The notes under the pieces were generated by a model that saw nothing but the letters and a program-made list of their open reading frames with translations, searched no databases and was not told where the DNA came from. Shown piece by piece: positions 62,383 to 62,418 of a stretch of DNA of 64,000 nucleotides. Origin of the DNA: Octopus sinensis (taxonomy: Eukaryota); assembly GCF_006345805.1 (NCBI RefSeq), contig NC_043009.1, positions 7,750,001 to 7,814,000 on the forward strand, read 5' to 3'. The position numbers and the translations under genes are program-made. The first letter of the stretch is position 1. Each line of letters begins with the position of its first letter.

Positions 62383-62418
62383 TTTTCTGACGAAGAGCTC
62401 CCGCTCGAAACGTTAAAA
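62383..62418 (+). ncRNA. Type I minimal hammerhead ribozyme, canonical core, inside element 62308-62500
   Basis: TTTT-CTGACGA-A-GAGC-TCCC-GCTC-GAAAC-GTT-AAAA. Confidence 0.75.

What the first reader, a model, noticed from the sequence alone, without database searches (positions are those of the whole stretch)
62383..62418. Intact loop-less minimal hammerhead that can only close stem III as a dimer
All core nucleotides are canonical (CUGACGA, GAAA, GUU triplet), with one extra A before stem II. GAAAC is followed directly by GUU, so stem III has no loop. The AACGUU palindrome could pair only with a second copy (inference).
Basis: partly seen in the sequence, partly recalled or inferred. Interest (0 to 1): 0.75.

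Follow-up and report, generated by a model that had tools for sequence, protein, structure and literature searches.

The report
Minimal hammerhead in Penelope retroelement stub
The 36 bases are a real but ordinary motif: the tiny hammerhead RNA in the end repeat of a very abundant Penelope-type jumping gene, a pairing described in 2014, here in a lone 195-base stub that likely does not cut itself because it has a weakened stem and no intact partner nearby.

Summary
The motif is present as described and is not chance. It lies in a 195-bp repeat (62309-62503) set in (TA)n. About 6,900 places in this genome match the family's hammerhead exactly. Long copies link this repeat to a reverse-transcriptase plus GIY-YIG frame, so it is the pseudo-LTR of an endonuclease-bearing Penelope-like element of Neptune/Nematis type. 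Loop-less, dimer-dependent minimal hammerheads with an extra base before stem II were described for such elements in 2014 (PMC4209133), including GUU examples and weak cleavage only as multimers. This copy is a lone stub: stem I has lost its closing G-C pair, folding predicts a trap, and the nearest same-strand copy (about 7.8 kb away) has a damaged core. It is likely inert. One extra: a subfamily with C at core position 4 (U4C) outnumbers the canonical form 4,403 to 2,491, a natural test of whether cleavage matters. The scan has noted both the pairing and core-changed subfamilies before on other DNA. New member of a known kind; low interest.

The parts
62309..62503 (+). Lone pseudo-LTR stub of an endonuclease-bearing Penelope-like retroelement; ends at the element's internal GGATTAACT(T/A)TATA site
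   Evidence: Repeat search, 3,065 first-look candidates, 40 scored, listed matches 87-95% identical; linked to RT and GIY-YIG in long copies and to the 5' UTR
62383..62386 (+). Stem I, 5' strand (UUUU; family majority GUUU)
62387..62393 (+). Hammerhead core C3-U4-G5-A6-C7-G8-A9
62394..62394 (+). Extra A between positions 9 and 10.1, a described min-HHR feature
   Evidence: 62 of 63 other copies; PMC4209133
62395..62406 (+). Stem II GAGC/GCUC with a 4-nt loop (3-nt loop in 63 of 63 other aligned copies, which lack the extra C)
62407..62410 (+). Core G12-A13-A14-A15.1
62410..62413 (+). ACGU palindrome: the predicted intermolecular stem III
   Evidence: model from PMC4209133 Fig. 1A legend
62412..62414 (+). 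GUU triplet; predicted cut between 62414 and 62415
   Evidence: position 17 is U in 54 and A in 6 of 63 other copies
62415..62418 (+). Stem I, 3' strand (AAAA; family majority AAAC)
62125..62308 (.). (TA)n microsatellite on the 5' side, the likely insertion target
   Evidence: microsatellite beside the 5' end in 24 of 40 and the 3' end in 33 of 40 sampled copies
62501..62618 (.). (TA)n/(ATAC)n microsatellite on the 3' side

Best explanation
This is the minimal type-I hammerhead motif carried in the end repeat (pseudo-LTR) of a Penelope-like retrotransposon, here in a lone 195-bp stub that is likely inactive. In the element the order is end repeat with hammerhead, TTTATATA, 5' UTR, RT, Zn-finger-like linker, GIY-YIG, CA-rich 3' UTR, end repeat again (shown). 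The stub likely arose when the element's nuclease nicked a (TA)n tract, the nicked end paired with the UUUAUAUA in the RNA about 100 nt past the hammerhead, and RT copied the uncut RNA back towards its likely start, 70-85 nt ahead of the core (inferred). Two hammerheads on one tandem transcript would pair ACGU with ACGU and swap stem I strands to form a double hammerhead that cuts slowly after GUU, probably with protein help (inferred from published relatives). This copy has a 4-pair all-A-U stem I, is predicted to misfold, and has no intact same-strand partner nearby, so it would rarely if ever cut.
For: Exact family motif 2,491 places with U4 and 4,403 with C4; reversed controls 0. Walk from the stub to the coding frame. 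In one search, 5 of the 9 long loci examined (L072, L073, L074, L075, L078) hold RT, endonuclease and the hammerhead-bearing end repeat in order on one strand; 2 more (L077, L079) hold endonuclease and the full repeat. Relatives of the RT piece (243 hits, best 120 listed, 46-64% identical) carry PF00078, PF26215, PF28514 and in part PF01541. The end repeat runs on through TTTATATA into the 5' UTR in most of 25 loci, and 9 of 25 hold two same-strand repeats spanning the hammerhead zone within about 1.2 kb. An unrelated family in the same genome (4,150 matches) keeps core, extra A and ACGU with wholly different stems; 28 of 30 have U17, which the pattern did not fix. Folding: monomer trap -8.9 against -3.2 kcal/mol for stems I+II; active dimer -4.5 against -19.8 for the best dimer fold. 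Literature: PMC4209133, PMC11167929.
Against: No cleavage or expression data for this family. The direct Pfam hit for GIY-YIG is below the curated cut-off (19.3 against 22.6 bits) and 3 of 4 pieces hit nothing. No intact full-length frame was found; all long copies seen are broken. Neptune versus Nematis was not separated. Folding energies omit the catalytic core's tertiary contacts, and the family-majority sequence is also predicted to misfold (-5.7 against -22.5), so folding alone does not single out this copy as dead. The RNA start is inferred from where stubs begin, and TATATGT micro-homology could also explain that cluster.
Confidence: 0.88

Rival explanations
1. This very copy is a working ribozyme that cuts a host or read-through transcript by pairing in trans with transcripts of other family copies.
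For: Core letters are all canonical; thousands of potential partners share the ACGU palindrome.
Against: Stem I lost its closing G-C. The core is predicted to pair with CGUUA instead. Published min-HHRs cut weakly even as cis dimers, and the Anolis one needed the element's protein. The copy is about as diverged from the family majority (95.3%) as the others (95.4% mean), with no sign of special conservation.
Confidence: 0.08
2. The 195-bp unit is an independent non-autonomous hammerhead SINE or retrozyme rather than a stub of a coding element.
For: Most copies are short with shared ends: 29 of 40 sampled copies begin 66-84 nt before C3. Retrozymes are proposed to derive from Penelope end repeats (bioRxiv 10.64898/2026.07.22.740005, abstract only).
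Against: The same sequence is continuous with the coding element on both sides. 5' ends are ragged and reach far upstream in some copies. No head-to-tail monomer array at this locus.
Confidence: 0.03
3. Chance look-alike, or a part of the neighbouring LINE or tRNA-SINE.
For: The loose core pattern occurs by chance; an RT fragment and a tRNA-headed repeat lie within 2 kb.
Against: Strict descriptor 0 of 300 resamples; family copies have other flanks; Penelope protein pieces give no hit in the window or the next 50 kb.
Confidence: 0.01

Closest known systems
Minimal hammerheads (min-HHR) in pseudo-LTRs of metazoan Penelope-like elements (Cervera and De la Pena 2014, PMC4209133; main text parts 1-3 of 4 and part 2 of 3 of the supplementary PDF read)
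   Same: Type-I topology, no loop III, palindromic 15.2-16.2, extra base between 9 and 10.1, G10.1-C11.1, 4-bp stem I, mostly solo truncated copies. CGUU ends are listed for Lottia, Ciona, Schistosoma japonicum and others, and the >80% consensus fits.
   Different: Stem II is shorter (4 bp; 7-8 bp in the Schistosoma families). None of the 44 rows in the supplement part I read has C at position 4, but their descriptor fixed the core boxes.
Small dimer-cleaving hammerheads of Penelope-like elements (Lunse, Weinberg, Breaker 2016, doi 10.1080/15476286.2016.1251002)
   Same: Title states dimer cleavage of small Penelope-associated hammerheads; seen only in a reference list and as summarised in PMC6765202 passages.
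   Different: Paper not held; whether this family is in it is unchecked.
PAc (Poseidon) of Anolis carolinensis (PMC11167929, passages read)
   Same: Hammerhead at the repeat/ORF junction, internal RT start, AT-rich targets, uncut RNA used as template, cleavage protein-assisted and not needed for insertion in vitro.
   Different: Penelope/Poseidon clade with the ORF starting in stem II; here the ORF start lies about 350 nt past the hammerhead (L073) and the protein has a Cys linker.
Neptune/Nematis clades of EN+ Penelope-like elements (PMC8557442, Introduction and passages read)
   Same: C-terminal GIY-YIG with two cysteines between GIY and YIG, extra Zn-finger-like linker (CSRSRCNTC), microsatellite targeting, canonical hammerhead.
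   Different: Clade not fixed by a tree. The family's hammerhead sequence was not found in that paper's supplement.
Natural U4C hammerhead of a viroid (Ambros and Flores 1998, as cited in PMC3088659 passages)
   Same: Same core change as in the larger subfamily; reported there as much slower in vitro but sufficient in vivo.
   Different: That is a full-length viroid hammerhead; the primary paper was not held.

Membership tests
min-HHR of metazoan Penelope-like elements | Core boxes CUGANGA and GAAA plus NUH | tested here: met
   62387-62393, 62407-62410, 62412-62414
min-HHR of metazoan Penelope-like elements | No loop III; positions 15.2-16.2 palindromic | tested here: met
   ACGU 62410-62413
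min-HHR of metazoan Penelope-like elements | Extra nucleotide between 9 and 10.1; G10.1-C11.1 pair | tested here: met
   A62394; G62395-C62406
min-HHR of metazoan Penelope-like elements | Short stem I (4-5 bp) and a stem II | tested here: met
   4 A-U pairs here, GUUU/AAAC in most copies; stems differ wholly in a second family with the same core
min-HHR of metazoan Penelope-like elements | Located in the pseudo-LTR of a Penelope-like element | tested here: met
min-HHR of metazoan Penelope-like elements | Self-cleavage as a dimer | not testable with these tools
   Needs an assay; 5' junctions show no clear pile-up at the cut
EN+ Penelope-like element | RT followed by a C-terminal GIY-YIG endonuclease in one frame | tested here: met
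   Order on one strand in broken copies; relatives carry PF00078 and PF01541; own Pfam hit below cut-off
EN+ Penelope-like element | CCHH Zn finger with two Cys between GIY and YIG | tested here: met
   LIYCIKCNLCGMLYVG followed by EHL and RHF in L056, L059, L063
EN+ Penelope-like element | Partial tandem arrangement that creates pseudo-LTRs | tested here: met
   L073 repeat-ORF-repeat; 9 of 25 loci with two close same-strand repeats
Neptune clade | Zn-finger-like linker between RT and EN (shared with Nematis) | tested here: met
   CSRSRCNTC; definition
Neptune clade | RT phylogeny groups with Neptune rather than Nematis | not tested
   No named reference sequences on hand
Non-LTR retrozyme | Non-coding head-to-tail monomers with no linked ORF | tested here: not met
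   Repeat is continuous with the coding element; single unit at this locus

The most novel reading that the evidence does not exclude
The family is a natural experiment on what Penelope hammerheads are for. Source elements that changed the near-invariant U4 to C went on to make more copies (4,403 against 2,491 exact matches) over at least two sub-lineages, and nearly all stubs span the cut site, so slower or no self-cleavage may have favoured spread. The motif would then act as a brake, or as a folded signal for the element's protein, rather than as a processing step.
Probability: 0.25. Interest if true: 0.45.

Novelty: new member of a known kind. Interest (0 to 1): 0.17.

Why it matters
As found, it matters little: it adds one family to a class described in 2014. 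The role of these hammerheads is still open (PMC8557442 passage), and this family offers matched U4 and C4 subfamilies, solo stubs and close tandem pairs. These would let one ask directly whether cleavage helps, hinders or is irrelevant to Penelope copying.

Tried and rejected
Rfam scan: no family at gathering score. PDB sequence search with the RT piece: only noise, E 0.66-0.71. Protein atlas gave no result. Test for cleavage-defined 5' ends: (TA)n junction counts on the reverse strand were 296 mostly downstream of the cut, 83 from the cut through the hammerhead and 184 in the upstream pyrimidine tract. The dip and rebound follow base composition. By hand count 7 of 37 listed loci join at the cut plus or minus 1, against 4 at another A micro-homology site, so there is no clear spike. 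Anchors differ between the three searches, so this is rough and inconclusive. Selection on core letters among copies: 3.2% against 4.0% substitutions at non-CpG sites in 63 BLAST-picked copies, uninformative because of how copies were picked. Sequencing runs: no RNA holder listed; no reads were laid, so expression is open. The motif at 63101-63126 as a partner: different, degenerate family with 2 weak other matches and a 6-nt stem III that would not pair cleanly with ACGU (inference). Literature searches for an octopus Neptune family and for a Penelope U4C variant found none; 'octopus' was my guess from repeat content, not a tool result. Supplement file 1 of PMC4209133 could not be searched, and the unseen Lunse paper and its supplements may list this family or U4C variants.

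Full report
Observation. The window reads TTTT CTGACGA A GAGC TCCC GCTC GAAA C GTT AAAA at 62383-62418. A strict descriptor finds this one site in the window and none in 300 of 300 dinucleotide resamples. Rfam has no matching family at gathering score. The active stem III would be the central ACGU; the wider AACGUU includes A14 and U17, which have to stay unpaired (inference).

What it sits in. The motif lies in a 195-bp island between (TA)n tracts. That island is a high-copy repeat in this 2.7-Gb genome: 3,065 first-look candidates, of which 40 were scored. Exact pattern counts give 2,491 places with the canonical core and 4,403 with C at position 4, with reversed controls at 0. Copies share a 3' end at GGATTAACT plus TA repeats about 90-120 nt past the predicted cut. 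Their 5' ends are ragged but clustered: 29 of 40 pattern-picked copies start 66-84 nt before C3 (a few shorter values are alignment limits in a diverged lineage).

Link to a coding element. Walking upstream led through a CA-rich region to frames with RT motifs (GVAMGTRMGPNFANLFVG, RYIDD), a CSRSRCNTC linker and a GIY-YIG domain with two cysteines between its halves. Of 9 long loci examined, 5 hold RT, endonuclease and the hammerhead-bearing repeat in order on one strand, 2 more hold endonuclease and the full repeat, and L073 shows repeat-ORF-repeat. The Pfam hit on my own piece is weak (PF01541, 19.3 bits, cut-off 22.6; 3 of 4 pieces without a hit). Relatives of the RT piece carry RVT_1 and in part GIY-YIG. 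Walking downstream, the repeat continues through TTTATATA into the 5' UTR in most of 25 loci, and 9 of those 25 hold two same-strand repeats spanning the hammerhead zone within about 1.2 kb (these loci were picked for holding the 5' UTR, so they are not a random sample). This is an endonuclease-bearing Penelope-like element of Neptune/Nematis type as defined in PMC8557442 (Introduction read); the clade was not fixed by a tree.

How it likely works. Shown: the sequence order, the microsatellite flanks (24 of 40 at the 5' side, 33 of 40 at the 3' side), and that counted copies keep both sides of the cut site. Inferred: the nicked (TA)n target pairs with the element's own UUUAUAUA, and RT copies uncut RNA back towards the RNA start. 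An initiator-like TCATTC lies 85 nt before C3 in the main lineage (motif recalled; position), though micro-homology with TATATGT could also make the cluster. I took up this run-off reading after seeing earlier scan notes and tested it only. It matches the Anolis PAc element, where RT starts internally, uncut RNA is the main template and the hammerhead needs protein (PMC11167929 passages). On a tandem transcript two hammerheads could form a double hammerhead. A second, unrelated family here (4,150 matches) keeps core, extra A and ACGU with different stems, and 28 of 30 of its copies have U17 although the pattern left that base free. That supports a real structure.

This copy. It differs from the family majority in the hammerhead: A for G at 62382, an extra T, an extra C in loop II and AAAAAA for AAAC, leaving four A-U pairs in stem I. 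The predicted best fold pairs U4-G8 with CGUUA (-8.9 kcal/mol) rather than stems I+II (-3.2); the active dimer scores -4.5 against -19.8. The majority sequence has the same tendency (-5.7 against -22.5), and such energies leave out core contacts. There is no other family copy in the window. Within the next 50 kb there is one opposite-strand copy with core CCGTCGA and one same-strand copy about 7.8 kb away with core TCGACGA. A cis partner is therefore lacking and the copy is likely inert. A search for 5' junctions piled at the cut was inconclusive.

Comparison with the known. PMC4209133 (main text parts 1-3 of 4; supplement passages and part 2 of 3) defines exactly this motif: no helix III, palindromic 15.2-16.2, extra base after A9, G10.1-C11.1. 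It lists mollusc and other examples ending CGUU, and reports no monomer cleavage and low multimer cleavage. A later paper on dimer cleavage is cited in PMC6765202 (passages) but was not held. All testable defining features are met; cleavage is untested.

The one extra. The C4 form is inherited, not scattered decay. In 20 C4 and 20 U4 copies taken in chromosome order, a linked C upstream is present in 19 of 20 against 1 of 20. The C4 group holds at least two lineages, and mean pairwise divergence is 8.3% against 10.3%. C4 also occurs in a copy joined to RT and endonuclease (L072). U4C is described for a viroid hammerhead as much slower in vitro yet sufficient in vivo (PMC3088659 passage). My searches found no paper on a Penelope U4C variant, but the scan's own notes report similar core-changed subfamilies in other genomes (unchecked AI notes, not support).

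Verdict. Observation confirmed; interpretation right in structure but already published; this copy is a likely inactive stub. New member of a known kind, interest 0.17.

Noticed in passing
G000 genome-wide; e.g. L072, L138-L157: Subfamily with C at hammerhead position 4 (CCGACGA) outnumbers the canonical core 4,403 to 2,491 and is linked to other inherited changes.
   Followed up: partly
window 63097-63137 (+): Second, degenerate hammerhead-like motif (CTGAGGA ... GAAAC AT GTA) with a short CCA/TGG stem I and a decayed stem II; only 2 weak matches elsewhere. Probably an old stub of another Penelope-like family.
   Followed up: partly
L084 about 7076 (-); L088-L117: A second abundant minimal-hammerhead family (stem I GACAC/GTGTY, stem II GGCTG/CAGCC, GUU), 4,150 exact matches; some copies lie as close inverted pairs. 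Its coding element was not traced (no hit of my protein pieces in 30 flanks).
   Followed up: partly
L163, L164, L165, L168, L171, L173, L174, L175, L180: Short partial tandems (end repeat, 5' UTR piece, end repeat) that place two hammerheads about 0.45-1.2 kb apart on one strand: natural substrates for a cis-dimer assay.
   Followed up: partly
window 60500-61760 (+): Broken LINE reverse-transcriptase frame ending at an assembly gap; looks RTE-like (label recalled, not tested).
   Followed up: no
window 61875-62125 (-): Repeat with a tRNA-like head carrying A- and B-box-like words, probably a SINE, directly beside the (TA)n tract.
   Followed up: no
window 5747-5787 (+): Third match to the loose core pattern; fails the strict descriptor, probably chance.
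   Followed up: yes
window 30333-31723: A 1.4-kb (TGG)n array, 466 copies.
   Followed up: no
window 57574-57796: 67-bp tandem unit, 3.4 copies, resembling a repeat also seen in the flanks of L033 and L047.
   Followed up: no
L006 1501-1871: Two family copies tail to tail around a (TA)n tract, an inverted arrangement.
   Followed up: no
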